Below are positions 46,801 to 52,800 of a stretch of 64,000 nt of DNA, in pieces. The stretch lies in NCBI RefSeq assembly GCF_056712565.1, contig NZ_CM160072.1; one strand, given 5' to 3'. The position numbers are program-made. Numbering within the stretch: position 1 is the stretch's first letter; every line of letters starts with the position of its first letter.

Positions 46801-49800
46801 CATAATGACTTTCATGTACATTGCTTTATGTACACACCCATATTCGATATTCAGGTATTCGCAATGCCAAAACTCACAGATATGCAGATCCGCGCATGGA
46901 TAAAGGCGGGAGACAGATTTGATGGCAAGGCAGACGGCAACGGCCTTTATATTTGCTACCCCAAAAACTACACAGTCCCGTTCTGGCGATTCCGATATAA
47001 GCTCGCAGGAAAACAGCGGGCTATGGTTATCGGCTCTTACTCCGAACTGTCACTATCAAAAGCCAGAGAAATAGCAAAAGAGCTGTCAGCCAGAGTTGCT
47101 CTTGGCTATGACGTAGCAGCAGAAAAACAGGAACGAAAAGCTGAAGCACTGGCAAAAATGGAGGCTGAGAAAAACGCCATGCGCGTTTCAGATCTGGCCG
47201 CCGAATACTTCGAGCGACAGATACTTCCGAGATGGAAACATCCCGATATCCTTCGCCGGAGAATTGATAAGGATATTAACCCCTGCATTGGGCATATGAA
47301 GGTAGAGGACGTTAAGCCACGCCACATTGACGACATGTTGAAAGGTATCGTTGACCGAGGAGCACCAACGATAGCAACAGATGTATTACGCTGGACACGC
47401 CGTATCTTTGACTATGGGATAAAACGCCACGCTCTGGAGATAAACCCTTGTTCAGCGTTTGAAGTATCTGATGCTGGTGGTAAAGAGGTTTCCCGCGACC
47501 GTTGGCTAACTCGCGATGAGCTTATCAGGCTATTCGAGGCTATGCGCACCGCAAAAGGATTCAGCCGCCAGAACGAACTGACATTTAAGCTATTGCTGGC
47601 ACTATGCGTTCGTAAGATGGAGTTATGCGCCGCACGATGGGAAGAGTTTGATTTAGATGGTGCGGTATGGCATTTGCCGGAAGAACGCAGCAAAAACGGA
47701 GACCCTATTGATATACCTCTACCTTCTCCTGCCGTTGAATGGTTGAGAGAGCTACACACCTTTTCATGTAATAGCGCATGGGTGCTTCCAGCCAGGAAGA
47801 TGCAAAACAGAATGATCCCACATATTCAGGAAAGCACTTTACCCGTAGCACTGGCTAAGGTTCGCGCCGAAATGCCGGATGTGCCTAATTTCACGATTCA
47901 CGACTTCCGGCGTACCGCACGTACTCATTTAGCAGCATTGGGTGTTGATCCTGTCGTAGCGGAACGATGCCTCAATCATCGCATTAAGGGTGTGGAGGGG
48001 ATTTATAACCGCCATCAGTATTTTGATGAGCGTAAAGCTGCGCTGGCACAGTGGGCTGATCTGCTGGTGGCACTGGAAAGCGGGAAAGACTACAACGTAA
48101 CGCCATTCGATAAAGCCCGGAGGCAAATGTGAACAACATCTTGAGAAAATCGCCAATCGAACGGCTTTGTTCATCTGTATCGATTACCCCTCATGAAATG
48201 GCTGTGGCCTTGGCTGGCCTAAACCCATCTATGCGCATTAGCGATGTGCCTGAGGAAAATTTCGAATATGTCGATTTTGTCAGAACTCATCTTGCCAGAG
48301 CTATCAAGGTGTACAGAGGTGAAAAAACTAGTAAAGACGAGCCTTGCCATGCCCTTGATATTTTCTTAGCTTCTTACCCATTTATTGACACAAATACACC
48401 AGAAATAATTGTTCAGAAAATATCAGAAGCGATTGATGATTTGCGTGGCACCAAGGGCTGGGAAGAAAAAGCCCGAAACCTTGGAGGACTCCAGTTAGTA
48501 AACTACATCAAAGAAACCAACCGCAGCGGACGTGGGCAGCATAGAAAGCAGGATGAGGAAAACGGGACAATGAAAATGATGGGGTTGATAGTACATCTGC
48601 TGATAAAAAAATCAGGCTCATCTTCCTACATCCAAAATGGGAAACCTAATCGCACAGCTATATACCGTGACATAGAAACCTTAATCAAGGATGAAGGGAT
48701 ATCCCATAAAGGAATAGCAAAAGCCACATTCCTAGAAAAAATCTCACGGGCTTTATTAGCTGTCCACGATCTCGACTAATCACTTTTCACGCCCCTCCAA
48801 AGCAATGGCGGGGCATTACCTGTTTACCCATCTCCACCAGCATAGATAATTCTATGCCTAGCCATTGCTATATCTGTTCGGCTTAGTTCATCTGTAATCA
48901 CCCCATCTCTAAAAGATACGCCAGCTATCATTAGCCATTTTAAGCCATCATGAGCCATTATAAACCGACTCAACCAATTGAATAATAAAAGATAAAAGGA
49001 AATGTAAAAACATGATGAATGACGATGAAAGATATAACTCTTTGATAAAACAATGATTTTTTAAACTGGTAACTAATTGAAAATAAAGAAAATAATTATC
49101 CCACCTGCATTTGCAATCTTTCAGTGGATCGGTATTTTTTCAATAGATTTATAATTTCTTTCAATAGATTCTAGTCTTAATAGAAATACTGTATGGGCAA
49201 CCACTAAACTTTAAGTAACTTCATGAGCTATCAGAGAGGTTACTAGAGATATGACAGCACACAAGCCAGCATCATCAGCTATCCCAACAACTGGATACAT
49301 CCGTCGCTTTCGCATGCCGGAATTGCTAGGTGTTTCACTGCCTACTATTGATAGATGGGTTAAAAATGGCACTCTTCCACGCCCAGTGAAGCTAACAGAT
49401 AACGTGACTGCGTTTGATGCGGTGGAAATTAATAACTGGCTGGCAGAACGCCGAAACACATCAGCCTGATTAAATGACTACGGGGGATGACGTTCAACCC
49501 CACCAGCAAACAAAAGTAACTTAATTTAATAGCAGGTGTTTTTATGAAACTGCGAAAAACGCCCGTACAGGGGCAGGGCTTCGTTCGGCCTGAAACCAGC
49601 ATGAGCGATATTCTGGTTCGCCACAAAGCGGAGTCGCGCATTGATTCCCGCTTATTTGCTGAGCGTATTGGCATAAAGCACAAAAACCTTTATTCGCTCA
49701 TTCAGAAGCACAAAACCGGATTGCGTGAACTGGGCATCCTTCCGTTTCAAACGGAGCGATTAAAAACCCGTCAAAACGGGGAGCGTGAACATAAGTTTGC

Positions 49801-52800
49801 CCTCCTGAATAGCGATCAGTTTGATTACATGTGTCGCATTGTGCGCGGTCGTGATGATGAACGCATGAACCGCTTCAAGCTGGATGTTACGAAGGCATTC
49901 GCAAAACATCGCGCTACCGAGCCTGTACGCCGTGAATATCTGCCAGGCTATCACGAAAGCCGTGACGGGCTTAAAGCACTGGGCGCAGAACGTCACCATT
50001 ACATCAATCTGGCACGCGCAGAGAACCGTGTTACAGGTCTGGTAACTGGCGAACGAGGCACAGCCAGCGAGCAGCAGTTAGGCTTGCTGATTGTCATGCA
50101 GAAAATCGAACAGGCCGCATTTGAGGAGGCGATACAGAACGGCATGACACCTACCGAAGCAGTGCGGGAGGTTGCCCGACGCATGGAGACATTCGCCAGC
50201 CTGATGACATCTGAGCCGTATCTGGGGGTAAATCATGCTTAAGGATTTCGCCGCACTTATTCCGGTATCACCTGGCATTATTGGCGGACATGAAACAGCC
50301 ATTGTCAGCGCCAGAGCGTTACATAAGGCGCTTGGTGTGAAGCGTGATTTCACTACATGGATTAAAGGGCGTATTGATCAGTACGGATTTAAAAATGGCG
50401 TGGATTTTGAGTTTGTAGAAAATTTGACCTCCCCCAATCCGGTGAGCGCAAAATCTCGCCAACGTGTAGAGCACGACTACCTGAGTACCATCAACATGGC
50501 GAAAGAACTTGCGATGGTCGAGCGTACCGAACAGGGCCGCGCTATTCGTCAGTACTTCATCAAATGCGAGGAGGAGCTACACAAAGTAGCGCCAGTGCGT
50601 TCCGCAGCGTTACGCCGTGAACTGAAAGCCCGTATCACCGTTGCCAGCTACTTTAAGCCGATGTGTGCCGCGCTGGAGGCGTACCGCGCTGAACTGGGTA
50701 AAAACACGCTCCAGCACCACTACACCACGGAAGCCAATATGCTGGCGCGTATCGTGCTGGGTGGCATGACTGCAAAACAGTGGGCGCAGGCGAACGGCAT
50801 CACAGGCGAACCACGCGACCACATGAGCACGCTGCAGCTTGAGCACCTTTCTTACCTTGAGCAGAGCAATATCACGCTGATTGAGTTAGGCCAGGACTAC
50901 CACCAGCGGAAAGCTGAATTAATTCGTCTTTCGCAACGCTGGTTAGCCCGCCGCATGGAGGTGAGCAGCCATGCGTAAACCTGTCTTTTATGCCGGGCGC
51001 ACTGAAATCTCTGTCATTAAATTCGATGACATTCAGGTGCGCATAGTGAGTATCAACGGCGAGCCGTGGTTTGTTGGCGCTGATGTGTGTGCTGCGCTGG
51101 AAATCAGCAATGTTACTGATGCTGTTTCAGTTCTGGATAACGACGAGGTAATGACCCTAGCTTTAACCGAGGGGCATTCCGGTAAGCGTGGTGGTGCCAG
51201 AAGCTGGAATGTTGTCTCTGAATCAGGTTTCTACAAACTGATCGCCCGCAGCCGTAAAGCTTCCACACCTGGCACATTTGCGCACCGTTTCAGTAACTGG
51301 GTATTCCGCGAGGTTATTCCTTCAATCCGCAAAACGGGGAGTTATGGTGTTCCGTTTGCCATGCTGAATGATTTCAGTAAACGCCAGGCTGCATATCAAC
51401 AGGAAGCCAGCAAACGCGGTTACAGGTTACAGCAATGCAAAGAGGCAAAAGATGCACTGGAACGAGAAGAGCGGGCGCTATGGCGTAAATATCAGCCTGA
51501 TTTTCTGGAGGGTGAAAGCAATGTGTAACGATCCGAACGTTACAGAAAGAAAAAGCGCCCCGTTGCTGGATAACAGGCAAAACAAAGGCGACCGGGATAG
51601 GTCGCCAGTGGGAACAAAGGAAATCAAACGCATCGCCAACAATGCCAGATTTGCGGCTGGTGGGCAATGTGATCAGTGTGCTGGCTTGCTGGTGGGCTAT
51701 TCCTGCTCTTTAGCATCGCCATACTGCGATGTTTTCCAGGTATGCGATCCCATTTTTGTGCGCCTGTACTCTTTTAAGAACTTCTCAAGGACAAACGCAC
51801 ATGGCGCAAATCTTTCCTGTTCTTGTTCGCTTACCGCATTTTTGCGTTGTTTTTTCCTGGATGAGGATAATTTCTTTAATGATTTGTCAGTCATCGTAGA
51901 TACCTGTAACCCTGTGCGCCACAGTTCACCGCACCACGGCGCTGGTGATGGTTACTCCTGCTCTTTGGCCTTCCGGCGCTGTTCATATTTTAATTTGCGT
52001 CCACAGGCATCTAAGACCCATGCGGAAAAATTAGCACTAGGATTAGTTAATTTTTCTTGTTCAACACTGGCATCAATCCCATCTATAAGCTCGTGCGGGA
52101 ATCGAATATTTTTCTTTGCTGATTTGTTGTTTGTGTTTCCGCTAGACATTGGTACACCTCACTTAAATGGATTTGATGGGCGCACACAATACAGCAAAAA
52201 AAGTGAGAAGTTAAGTATTGACATGTGCGCACACATGATTTTAATCTGTGCGCACAGTTTGGGTTGCATTGCTCAAATTAAGCAACGCCCCGCAGTGCTC
52301 GCAACACATGCAGGGCGTCTAACCACCAACGATAGAAAGCGTATCGAGGTAGCTATGTTAAATCATACCACACACCCGCAAGGGCGGGACTCGCACAACC
52401 TGAATAAATACATCTGGCGTTTTATCGCCCTGAGCACCGCACAACCACGCGTAATACACATCGAGGCCGCCAGCGAACAGGAAGCCCGTCAGCAATCCCC
52501 GGCTGGCTGCGTGATGGTATTTACTGCCCGCATCCGTCAGGGGGAATACTATGCGTGATGAACGATTTATTCTTCTGGAGCAAAAATTCAGTGAAGCGCC
52601 AAAAAATGAAATTGATGCTCTTTTGCATATCGCGAATATGCTAAAAGTAGCAACGTTCCTTATAGTTTCGAATCTGGAGCATGAAACGGCGTTAGATATA
52701 CTGAACAGTGCTGTCGATTATTCTGAATATATTGCCGAGGATAAATACAGGCAATTACCAGATTTGTTAGCCCATAAATATAAAGAAGAACCTCACACCG

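What the first reader, a model, noticed from the sequence alone, without database searches (positions are those of the whole stretch)
49544..51528. Three consecutive antirepressor-type genes (Rha-like, AntA-like, Bro-N) with overlapping ends
Three adjacent genes of the families phages use to counter repressors are tightly packed (8-bp overlaps at 50235-50242 and 50971-50978) downstream of alpA. In a satellite-like element these could sense or manipulate a helper phage.
Basis: partly seen in the sequence, partly recalled or inferred. Interest (0 to 1): 0.5.

Follow-up and report, generated by a model that had tools for sequence, protein, structure and literature searches.

The report
Bro-zone gene trio of a PICI
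Three overlapping genes labelled "antirepressor-like" form the known, fast-shuffling "Bro zone" of an E. coli phage satellite (a PICI) and most likely encode helper-induced DNA-binding regulators, not proven antirepressors, so this is a tidy mosaic example of a described but functionally untested module.

Summary
ORFs 49544-50242, 50235-50978 and 50971-51528 exist, overlap by exactly 8 bp (ATGCTTAA, ATGCGTAA) and hit Pfam Phage_pRha, AntA and Bro-N. They follow an AlpA-family gene. The element is a ~19.9 kb PICI-type satellite between yicC and dinD: int, alpA, the trio, an icd-like gene, a DUF927 primase, SSB, then virion-type late genes. It has the same plan as the experimentally validated EcCIMP1.

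The trio matches the published "Bro zone" of Gram-negative PICIs (Mageeney et al. 2023). Islands at the same site carry one to three such genes, or a T5orf172 nuclease gene in the AntA slot. This copy is a recombinant whose crossover lies exactly at the rha/antA overlap.

"Antirepressor" is only a family label. No KilAC/ANT domain was found. Structure models of Rha and AntA both match the DNA-binding protein DdrC (winged helix plus helical bundle). All three proteins are basic.

Best reading: AlpA-driven, helper-induced, modular DNA-binding regulators, like PLE CapR. Antirepressor action on a helper is not excluded. This is a new member of a known kind, of modest interest. The most unusual detail is a conserved disordered N-terminal leader that stays on whichever Bro gene comes first.

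The parts
46783..46806 (.). attL-like 24-nt direct repeat, CGTGTACATAGAGGTGTACATAAT. Its partner lies 19,913 bp downstream, beyond the window end at about window-equivalent 66696.
   Evidence: repeat family D3 in L001 (window coordinate = L001 coordinate + 34699).
46864..48132 (+). Tyrosine integrase, pointing into the island.
48129..48779 (+). 216-aa conserved hypothetical protein (phrog_30524). It also follows int in an Enterobacter island.
49135..49170 (+). Two TTTCAATAGATT direct repeats spaced 21 nt apart, in the AT-rich region upstream of alpA. Candidate activator site; no good sigma-70 -35 element here.
   Evidence: (family D9).
49251..49469 (+). alpA (AlpA/HTH_17 family regulator/excisionase).
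   Evidence: PF05930 6.9e-6.
49544..49594 (+). Conserved leader (MKLRKTPVQGQGFVRPE) at the start of the first Bro-zone gene. The same peptide heads AntA, Bro-N or T5orf172 genes in other islands. It is disordered in the model.
49544..50242 (+). Rha-family gene (232 aa): winged-helix-like N-domain plus helical C-domain.
50235..50242 (+). 8-bp overlap ATGCTTAA. It is also the recombination breakpoint between the two parental island types.
50235..50978 (+). AntA-family gene (247 aa). This copy lacks the leader, which it carries when it is the first gene.
50971..50978 (+). 8-bp overlap ATGCGTAA. The conserved tail ..RRMEVSSHA* is shared with the T5orf172 allele.
50971..51528 (+). Bro-N-family gene (185 aa).
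51587..51606 (-). G+C-rich hairpin followed by a T-run on the minus strand: terminator of the convergent small-gene pair. It has no T-run on the + strand.
51697..51894 (-). 65-aa protein (phrog_21027). Probable paralogue of the next gene, on the basis of equal length and a similar C-terminal tail only.
51952..52149 (-). YlcI/YnfO-family 65-aa protein. Candidate island repressor; this role is inferred.
52177..52256 (.). Cluster of three TGTGCGCACA-type palindromes around a TTGACA hexamer, between ylcI and icd. Operator-like.
52355..52558 (+). Icd-like gene, first of the replication operon.
52551..53113 (+). 85-aa ORF and DUF4222 gene.
53110..55236 (+). DUF927 primase/helicase (phrog_1139).
55447..56746 (+). 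SSB, ProQ/FinO-like gene, and a 120-aa ORF matching the N-terminus of phrog_63 Ant.
57470..64000 (+). Late zone: three large virion/ejection-type proteins (phrog_992, phrog_1145, phrog_684). The last runs off the window end.

Best explanation
The three genes are the 'Bro zone' of a ~19.9 kb PICI-type phage satellite integrated between yicC and dinD.

Shown:
- They lie 74 bp downstream of alpA on the same strand.
- They are linked by two 8-bp start/stop overlaps.
- Each encodes a basic two-part protein. The N-terminal module belongs to the Rha/AntA/Bro-N/KilA-N network. In the Rha and AntA models it is a beta-hairpin plus winged-helix fold, followed by a helical bundle as in the dsDNA-binding dimer DdrC.
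- The zone is swapped as cassettes between otherwise near-identical islands.

Inferred:
- The trio is co-transcribed and translationally coupled with alpA. It would therefore be made only when a helper phage switches on the AlpA-autoactivated promoter.
- The proteins act as dimeric, sequence-specific DNA-binding regulators that retune transcription of helper-phage and/or island genes during satellite induction, as PLE CapR does.
- Carrying three different recognition modules, and exchanging them by recombination at the gene junctions, widens or changes which DNA targets, and so which helpers, the satellite can handle.
For: Identity of the element:
- int, alpA, DUF927 primase, SSB and virion-type late genes are present, with no PADLOC hits in the late genes.
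- 24-nt flanking direct repeats lie 19.9 kb apart.
- The plan matches EcCIMP1, which is excised and transduced by helper phage Kapi1 (PMC11773190).

Match to the published Bro zone: it lies between alpA and the primase and is made of AntA, Bro-N and Phage_pRha proteins (PMC10111431).

Orthologues hold the same slot in other genera:
- Rha in Morganella and Xenorhabdus islands, including one embedded in a prophage TerL gene.
- Bro-N in E. coli helper-embedded PICIs and in an Enterobacter island.

Operon logic:
- There is no strong + strand terminator from alpA to 51528; the only candidate is a weak one at 49630.
- SD-like sequences and overlaps are present at both junctions.
- No LexA-like box lies near alpA.

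DNA-binding character:
- The AntA N-domain also matches the Mbp1 APSES and Dachshund DNA-binding domains.
- DdrC binds dsDNA as a dimer (PMC9303277).
- The three proteins have pI 9.1-9.8.
- CapR is the precedent (PMC8096241).

Cassette exchange:
- Only 8 of 5426 genomes hold the full trio, while 1418 hold pieces.
- Variants at the same site carry one or two Bro genes, or a T5orf172 gene.
- The crossover lies exactly at position 50242.
Against: - No DNA target has been identified and no binding was tested.
- The winged helix of DdrC itself is acidic and is thought not to contact DNA (PMC9303277), so the fold match does not prove sequence-specific binding.
- Some proteins carrying AntA or Bro-N domains are genuine antirepressors that act through protein contacts.
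- Bro-zone orthologues at about 70% identity occur in satellites with very different late modules: HK97-type capsid versus ejection proteins. That argues against tight helper specificity.
- The Bro-N protein was not modelled.
- Co-transcription with alpA is inferred from sequence, not measured.
Confidence: 0.45

Rival explanations
1. One or more of the three proteins is a true antirepressor. It would bind the immunity repressor of a helper prophage, as P4 epsilon does with P2 C or P1 Ant does with C1. This would trigger or reinforce helper induction so that the satellite can spread. Three genes would cover several immunity types.
For: The family names come from real antirepressors. The N-domains are 46-61% identical to those of phage 'Ant' proteins, including N15 gp30 and Stx2a phage Ant. 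Satellites are known to derepress helpers (P4 epsilon, from general knowledge). EcCIMP1 helps its helper to excise (PMC11773190). Cassette diversity would fit matching diverse repressors.
Confidence: 0.2
2. The proteins serve the island's own switch. After AlpA activation they would relieve the YlcI/YnfO-type repressor, or directly activate the icd-primase promoter. Alternatively, transcription through them simply reads on, antisense to the repressor genes, into the replication operon.
For: The trio converges on the two small minus-strand genes. Those genes diverge from the icd-primase operon across three TGTGCGCACA palindromes. No + strand terminator lies between bro and icd. At least one Bro-network gene follows alpA in every island examined, which suggests a core role. 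P4's late-left transcript gives a precedent for read-through (PMC10111431).
Against: In the Morganella, Xenorhabdus and EcCIMP1 islands there is no convergent YlcI pair, yet Rha or AntA is still present. The Bro genes are swapped independently of the ylcI/operator alleles. In EcCICFT073, AlpA overexpression alone suffices for replication (PMC6092414).
Confidence: 0.15
3. The genes are mainly selfish passengers: domesticated or decayed relatives of GIY-YIG/T5orf172 homing endonuclease genes. They would persist and shuffle by their own mobility and recombination, with little role in the satellite cycle.
For: A T5orf172/MUG113 nuclease gene occupies the AntA slot in sister islands and shares the same 3' tail. 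The breakpoint lies exactly at a gene junction. Links between the Bro network and homing endonucleases are noted in PMC10111431 and PMC8096241.
Against: None of the three has a nuclease domain. Each is conserved at full length at 60-77% identity across genera and always in the same slot, which indicates purifying selection for a function tied to the satellite.
Confidence: 0.1
4. They are anti-phage interference or defence effectors of the satellite, for example superinfection exclusion against the helper or other phages.
For: The AntA C-terminal region matches the PADLOC candidate PDC-S22 at 4e-10. [quoted passage not shown]
Against: This is a single partial hit to an uncharacterised candidate model. 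Rha and Bro-N have no PADLOC hit.
Confidence: 0.07

Closest known systems
'Bro zone' of Gram-negative PICIs and helper-embedded PICIs (Mageeney et al. 2023, PMC10111431)
   Same: Same position between int-alpA and the primase, same orientation, same Pfam set (AntA, Bro-N, Phage_pRha, with T5orf172 nearby in sister islands), and the same domain and cassette swapping.
   Different: That paper is a genomic description with no functional test. No C4/isrK-type immunity RNA was found here. Instead a convergent YlcI/YnfO gene pair with palindromic operators separates the Bro zone from the replication operon.
EcCIMP1, an E. coli PICI mobilised by phage Kapi1 (Pick et al. 2025, PMC11773190)
   Same: About 20 kb. 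Contains int, alpA, an AntA-family gene, DUF4222, ash/icd-like genes, a DUF927 primase, ejection-type late proteins and PerC.
   Different: EcCIMP1 has one AntA gene, with the other leader type, preceded by a 143-aa ORF. It uses a different integration site (tRNA-Thr). Its 'antirepressor' was not tested either.
CapR of the Vibrio cholerae satellite PLE (Netter et al. 2021, PMC8096241)
   Same: A satellite-encoded protein from the Bro-N/KilA-N/T5orf172 network. It works as a sequence-specific DNA binder on a helper promoter.
   Different: No detectable sequence similarity was tested or claimed. CapR is a zinc-dependent domain derived from a homing endonuclease and belongs to a different satellite family.
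Phage antirepressors P1/P7 Ant1/Ant2 (AntA/AntB), N15 gp30 (annotated 'anti-repressor Ant' in the phage record) and P22 Ant
   Same: Shared N-terminal AntA or Bro-N modules. The Bro-N domain is 50% identical to N15 gp30. An icd-like gene lies nearby, as in the P1 immI and N15 immA regions.
   Different: The C-terminal halves differ and no KilAC/ANT domain is present. No c4-type RNA was found. The genes are not in one operon with icd. Repressor binding is unknown.
P4 satellite left operon (vis, eta/kil, cI, epsilon, alpha)
   Same: An AlpA-like gene leads a co-directional block ending in a primase. The block holds a network protein and, in P4, an antirepressor (epsilon).
   Different: No sid, delta or psu genes and no CI RNA were detected. 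The int orientation and late genes differ. No similarity to epsilon was tested.
DdrC of Deinococcus radiodurans (PDB 7qvb, PMC9303277)
   Same: Best and only strong structural match for both the Rha and AntA models: beta-hairpin plus winged helix, a long linker helix, then a helical bundle.
   Different: Only 14-18% sequence identity. DdrC is a damage-induced nucleoid protein with no known phage role.

Membership tests
Gram-negative PICI (phage-inducible chromosomal island) | Integrase at the left end reading inward, followed by an AlpA-family regulator. | tested here: met
Gram-negative PICI (phage-inducible chromosomal island) | Own primase/replication module downstream, co-directional. | tested here: met
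   DUF927 protein matches phrog_1139 DNA primase at 2e-174. SSB is present.
Gram-negative PICI (phage-inducible chromosomal island) | Size of about 10-20 kb, flanking att direct repeats, and no tail or lysis genes. | tested here: met
   24-nt direct repeats lie 19,913 bp apart. The late genes are three virion/ejection-type proteins only.
Gram-negative PICI (phage-inducible chromosomal island) | [quoted passage not shown] | not testable with these tools
   Shown only for the architecturally similar EcCIMP1 and EcCICFT073 (PMC11773190, PMC6092414).
PICI Bro zone / Bro-N network proteins | Genes between alpA and the primase whose products hit the network Pfams (AntA, Bro-N, Phage_pRha, KilA-N, ANT and others). 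| tested here: met
   The definition is in PMC10111431.
PICI Bro zone / Bro-N network proteins | Domain or cassette swapping between related islands. | tested here: met
PICI Bro zone / Bro-N network proteins | Embedded C4/isrK-type immunity RNA (present in some Bro zones only). | tested here: not met
   The Rfam E-value scan of 45000-64000 gave no C4 or isrK hit.
Classical phage antirepressor (P1 Ant / P22 Ant type) | N-terminal AntA or Bro-N module. | tested here: met
Classical phage antirepressor (P1 Ant / P22 Ant type) | C-terminal KilAC/ANT (PF03374) or P22_AR domains. That these accompany the N-module in the classical proteins is from memory. | tested here: not met
   Pfam scans of all three proteins and of 42 AntA relatives show none.
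Classical phage antirepressor (P1 Ant / P22 Ant type) | Binds and inactivates a phage immunity repressor. | not testable with these tools
   Needs binding or induction assays.
Classical phage antirepressor (P1 Ant / P22 Ant type) | Kept silent by dedicated immunity control (c4 RNA, Arc/Mnt or LexA). | tested here: not met
   No C4 RNA and no LexA-like box near alpA. Control by AlpA is inferred instead.
Rha family (PF09669) | Match to the Phage_pRha profile over most of its length. | tested here: met
   7.4e-7, model positions 1-87 of 91. The match is weak but consistent with phrog_518/2657.
P4-like satellite | sid, delta and psu capsid-size/transactivation genes, and CI RNA immunity. | tested here: not met
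   None is annotated in the whole island. The late genes hit other PHROGs. There is no C4 hit. Not every small ORF was scanned.
PADLOC candidate defence system PDC-S22 | Full-length match to the model. | tested here: inconclusive
   Only AntA residues 152-235 match model positions 176-259 of 281, at 4e-10.

The most novel reading that the evidence does not exclude
The Bro zone could be a plug-in helper-recognition device. In this reading, the conserved disordered N-terminal leader is a common docking handle for a fixed partner such as AlpA, RNA polymerase or a helper protein. That leader stays on whichever Bro gene is first after alpA and comes in two types shared by Rha, AntA and Bro-N proteins. 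The interchangeable DdrC-like or Bro-N modules would then supply the target specificity. A three-module satellite such as this one could sense or reprogram, and perhaps derepress, several unrelated helper phages.
Probability: 0.12. Interest if true: 0.6.

Novelty: new member of a known kind. Interest (0 to 1): 0.3.

Why it matters
PICIs are very common in Enterobacterales. In the census paper used here (PMC10111431) and in every island examined here, at least one Bro-network gene follows alpA. No Bro-zone gene of a Gram-negative PICI has yet been tested in the literature searched. How AlpA-type satellites talk to their helpers, and what sets helper range, is still open.

This island offers a natural series for such tests: one, two or three modules, or a nuclease, at the same chromosomal site, with near-identical flanks. 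The structural link of the Rha and AntA families to DdrC gives a concrete, testable DNA-binding model. The position-bound leader peptide is a small new clue.

As a genome feature it is ordinary. It is already annotated this way in RefSeq and fits a published layout.

Tried and rejected
- **Immunity RNA in or near the trio.** The Rfam E-value scan of 45000-64000 gave only a chance CRISPR-DR hit.
- **RNA structure in the conserved leader and alpA-rha spacer.** Folding z-score was -0.65, which is not significant. The leader sequence occurs only once in the window.
- **Nucleotide-level versus peptide-level conservation of the leader.** Within E. coli it looked nucleotide-invariant. Across genera, synonymous differences show peptide-level conservation instead.
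- **Covariation of leader type with AlpA type.** No simple pattern was found.
- **Direct sequence paralogy among the three proteins.** BLASTP found nothing. hhalign for Rha versus AntA was weak (probability 11%). A shared phrog_2657 match and a shared DdrC fold suggest remote kinship of Rha and AntA only.
- **Defence-system membership.** PADLOC gave only a partial PDC-S22 hit and nothing for the late genes.
- **Similarity of the Bro-N protein to the neighbouring host DinD.** None found.
- **Solved-structure homologues by sequence or profile.** None found.
- **YlcI as a recognisable ribbon-helix-helix protein by PDB sequence search.** No support, so its role as repressor stays an inference.
- **SOS control.** No LexA-like box near alpA.
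- **NCBIfam.** No models matched the three proteins.

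
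Full report
**Observation.** The window holds three + strand ORFs at exactly the reported coordinates: 49544-50242 (232 aa), 50235-50978 (247 aa) and 50971-51528 (185 aa).
- Both junctions are genuine 8-bp start/stop overlaps, ATGCTTAA and ATGCGTAA. Each is preceded by a Shine-Dalgarno-like run.
- Pfam gives Phage_pRha (7.4e-7), AntA (8.9e-23) and Bro-N (9e-18), each covering only the N-terminal half of its protein. PHROGs agree. NCBIfam has no model for any of the three.
- The 72-aa gene 74 bp upstream is AlpA family (PF05930 6.9e-6).
- Each protein has full-length orthologues at roughly 60-77% identity in many Enterobacterales.

**What the element is.** The DNA is E. coli, and identical copies occur in strains M21170, ExPEC XM, PU-1 and others. 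In ExPEC XM the region between yicC and dinD reads as follows:
- int, a 216-aa ORF, alpA, Rha, AntA and Bro-N on the + strand;
- two small minus-strand genes, one of them YlcI/YnfO family;
- an Icd-like gene, an 85-aa ORF, DUF4222, a DUF927 protein, SSB, ProQ/FinO, a frameshifted PerC, then three large proteins.

Further details:
- The DUF927 protein is a primase/helicase (phrog_1139, 2e-174).
- The three large proteins are virion or ejection-type proteins (phrog_992, 1145 and 684) with no PADLOC hit.
- A 24-nt direct repeat flanks the block, 19,913 bp apart.
- This is the layout of a Gram-negative PICI. It closely parallels EcCIMP1, which was shown to excise and be transduced only with its helper Kapi1 (PMC11773190).

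**Place in the literature.** Mageeney et al. (PMC10111431) describe four ordered zones in Gram-negative PICIs: Integration (int, AlpA), Bro, Replication and Late.
[quoted passage not shown] It is defined by Pfams that include AntA, Bro-N and Phage_pRha.
- The trio is therefore one instance of a described module.
- No paper in the searchable library tests a PICI Bro-zone gene. EcCIMP1's "antirepressor" was only annotated.

**Comparative evidence.** Orthologues hold the same slot in other genera.
- The Rha orthologue sits just after alpA in Morganella and Xenorhabdus islands. One of these is embedded in a prophage TerL gene.
- The Bro-N orthologue is the sole Bro gene of E. coli helper-embedded PICIs and of an Enterobacter island.
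- At least one such gene followed alpA in every island examined.

The zone is also highly fluid.
- The full trio occurs in 8 of 5426 complete E. coli genomes, while fragments occur in 1418.
- At the same yicC site, sister islands carry Rha + T5orf172/MUG113 nuclease + Bro-N, or AntA + Bro-N. Elsewhere AntA occurs alone.
- The window copy is a recombinant. Positions 46700-50242 are 99.9% identical to the strain 3908 island, and positions 50242-56000 are 99.9% identical to the UTAK-6 island. The crossover falls exactly in the rha/antA overlap.
- The 3' tail ..RWLARRMEVSSHA, which overlaps the bro start, is shared by AntA and the nuclease allele. Modules are therefore exchanged at conserved, translationally coupled junctions.

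**A position-bound leader.**
- The first 16 residues of the window Rha, MKLRKTPVQGQGFVRP, are the same as those of AntA in islands where AntA comes first. The window AntA and Bro-N lack them.
- In E. coli the leader heads Rha, AntA, GIY-YIG or unnamed genes in 374 genomes.
- Across the three family alignments two leader types recur..GQGF[AV][HR]PE.. and MTIEKSR[FL]NSEAAPQP.. Each is found on Rha, AntA and Bro-N proteins.
- Across genera the codons differ synonymously, so the peptide itself is conserved.
- The leader is disordered in the Rha model.
- I found no RNA structure in it and no simple covariation with AlpA type. Its role is unexplained.

**What the proteins look like.**
- AlphaFold models of AntA (pLDDT 90) and Rha (pLDDT 77) share a beta-hairpin, helix-helix, beta-hairpin, helix N-domain followed by long helices.
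- DdrC has a beta-hairpin plus winged helix, a linker helix and a four-helix bundle. It forms a domain-swapped dimer and binds dsDNA (PMC9303277).
- The AntA N-domain also matches the APSES domain of Mbp1 and Dachshund. From memory, this fits the link that Iyer, Koonin and Aravind (2002) drew between the KilA-N/Bro network and APSES domains.
- BFVD hits are generic "antirepressor", KilA-N, MSV199 or Rha-type regulatory proteins.
- No KilAC/ANT or P22_AR domain is present in the trio or in 42 AntA relatives.
- All three proteins are basic, with pI 9.1-9.8.
- The N-domains are 40-61% identical to those of temperate-phage "Ant" proteins, including N15 gp30. The C-terminal halves are mostly satellite-specific.

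**Regulatory setting.**
- Upstream of alpA lies an AT-rich region with two TTTCAATAGATT repeats 21 nt apart and no good -35 element.
- No strong + strand terminator lies between alpA and the end of bro. One weak candidate sits at 49630.
- There is no LexA-like box near alpA.
[quoted passage not shown] It is induced by helper phages and not by SOS, and it suffices for excision and replication (PMC6092414). EcCIMP1 behaves alike.
- By analogy, the trio is helper-induced through AlpA. This is an inference.
- Downstream, the trio converges on two probably paralogous 65-aa genes, whose terminator hairpin (51587-51606) works only on the minus strand. These genes diverge from the icd-primase operon across three TGTGCGCACA palindromes. 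Read-through from the alpA promoter into the replication genes is therefore possible.

**Mechanism.**
- Best reading (confidence about 0.45): helper-induced, dimeric, sequence-specific DNA-binding regulators that retune helper and/or island transcription, as PLE CapR does (PMC8096241). The exchangeable modules would set specificity.
- Rivals, in decreasing order of confidence:
  - parts of the island's own derepression switch (about 0.15);
  - largely selfish descendants of homing endonucleases (about 0.1);
  - interference or defence effectors, resting on a partial PDC-S22 hit.

**Verdict.**
- The finding is real and correctly placed in a satellite.
- The "antirepressor" function is a label carried by the N-terminal domains, not a supported mechanism.
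- The arrangement is a new member of a known kind, already annotated this way in RefSeq and fitting a published scheme.
- Its main value is as a natural allelic series for testing what PICI Bro zones do, together with two small clues: the DdrC-like fold and the position-bound leader.

Noticed in passing
window 49544-49594; also L006 3244-3300, L017 5001-5060 and alignments A4-A7: A disordered N-terminal leader of about 20 residues comes in two types, ..GQGF[AV][HR]PE.. and MTIEKSR[FL]NSEAAPQP... It stays on whichever large Bro-zone gene is first after alpA and is shared by Rha, AntA, Bro-N and T5orf172 proteins. It is conserved at the peptide level across genera.
   Followed up: partly
models of window 49544-50239 and 50235-50975: Both the Rha and AntA models have Deinococcus DdrC (7qvb) as their only strong PDB match. 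DdrC was published as having no known homologues, so it may descend from this phage/satellite protein family.
   Followed up: partly
window 50242: The island is a clean two-parent mosaic. The left part is 99.9% identical to the strain 3908 island and the right part is 99.9% identical to the UTAK-6 island. The switch lies inside the 8-bp rha/antA overlap.
   Followed up: yes
window 51697-52256: Two probably paralogous 65-aa minus-strand genes (a phrog_21027 protein and a YlcI/YnfO protein) face the trio. They diverge from the icd-primase operon across three TGTGCGCACA palindromes around a TTGACA hexamer. This looks like a repressor/operator switch, which is unusual for AlpA-type PICIs.
   Followed up: partly
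window 57470-64000 (L001 22771-30118): The late zone consists of three very large virion/ejection-type proteins (843, 686 and 918 aa; phrog_992 with a transglycosylase region, phrog_1145 and phrog_684). There are no capsid or terminase genes. This resembles the 'DNA transfer' proteins of EcCIMP1 and hints at a podovirus-type helper.
   Followed up: partly
window 56384-56746 (L001 21685-22047): A 120-aa ORF after the ProQ/FinO gene matches the N-terminal part of the phrog_63 'anti-repressor Ant' profile (5e-25). This is a fourth fragment of the same protein network, lying outside the Bro zone.
   Followed up: no
window 49135-49170: Two TTTCAATAGATT direct repeats, 21 nt apart, lie just upstream of alpA in a region with a TATAAT but no good -35 element. 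Candidate binding site for AlpA or a helper activator.
   Followed up: no
L016 4036-4812 (sister island in strain 3908): In place of AntA there is a T5orf172/MUG113 (GIY-YIG superfamily) protein. It ends with the same ..RWLARHMEVSSHA tail and the same overlap with bro.
   Followed up: yes
L011 and L013-L015: Rha- and Bro-N-bearing satellites are integrated inside the large terminase gene of prophages in Xenorhabdus and E. coli. These are textbook helper-embedded PICIs, some as tandem copies (L012).
   Followed up: no
window 28000-34000: A block of low G+C (0.31-0.40) lies well upstream of the island. L001, whose waa/rfa gene annotation begins at about window-equivalent 34,700, does not cover this block, so it is probably further LPS-core genes. 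Not examined.
   Followed up: no
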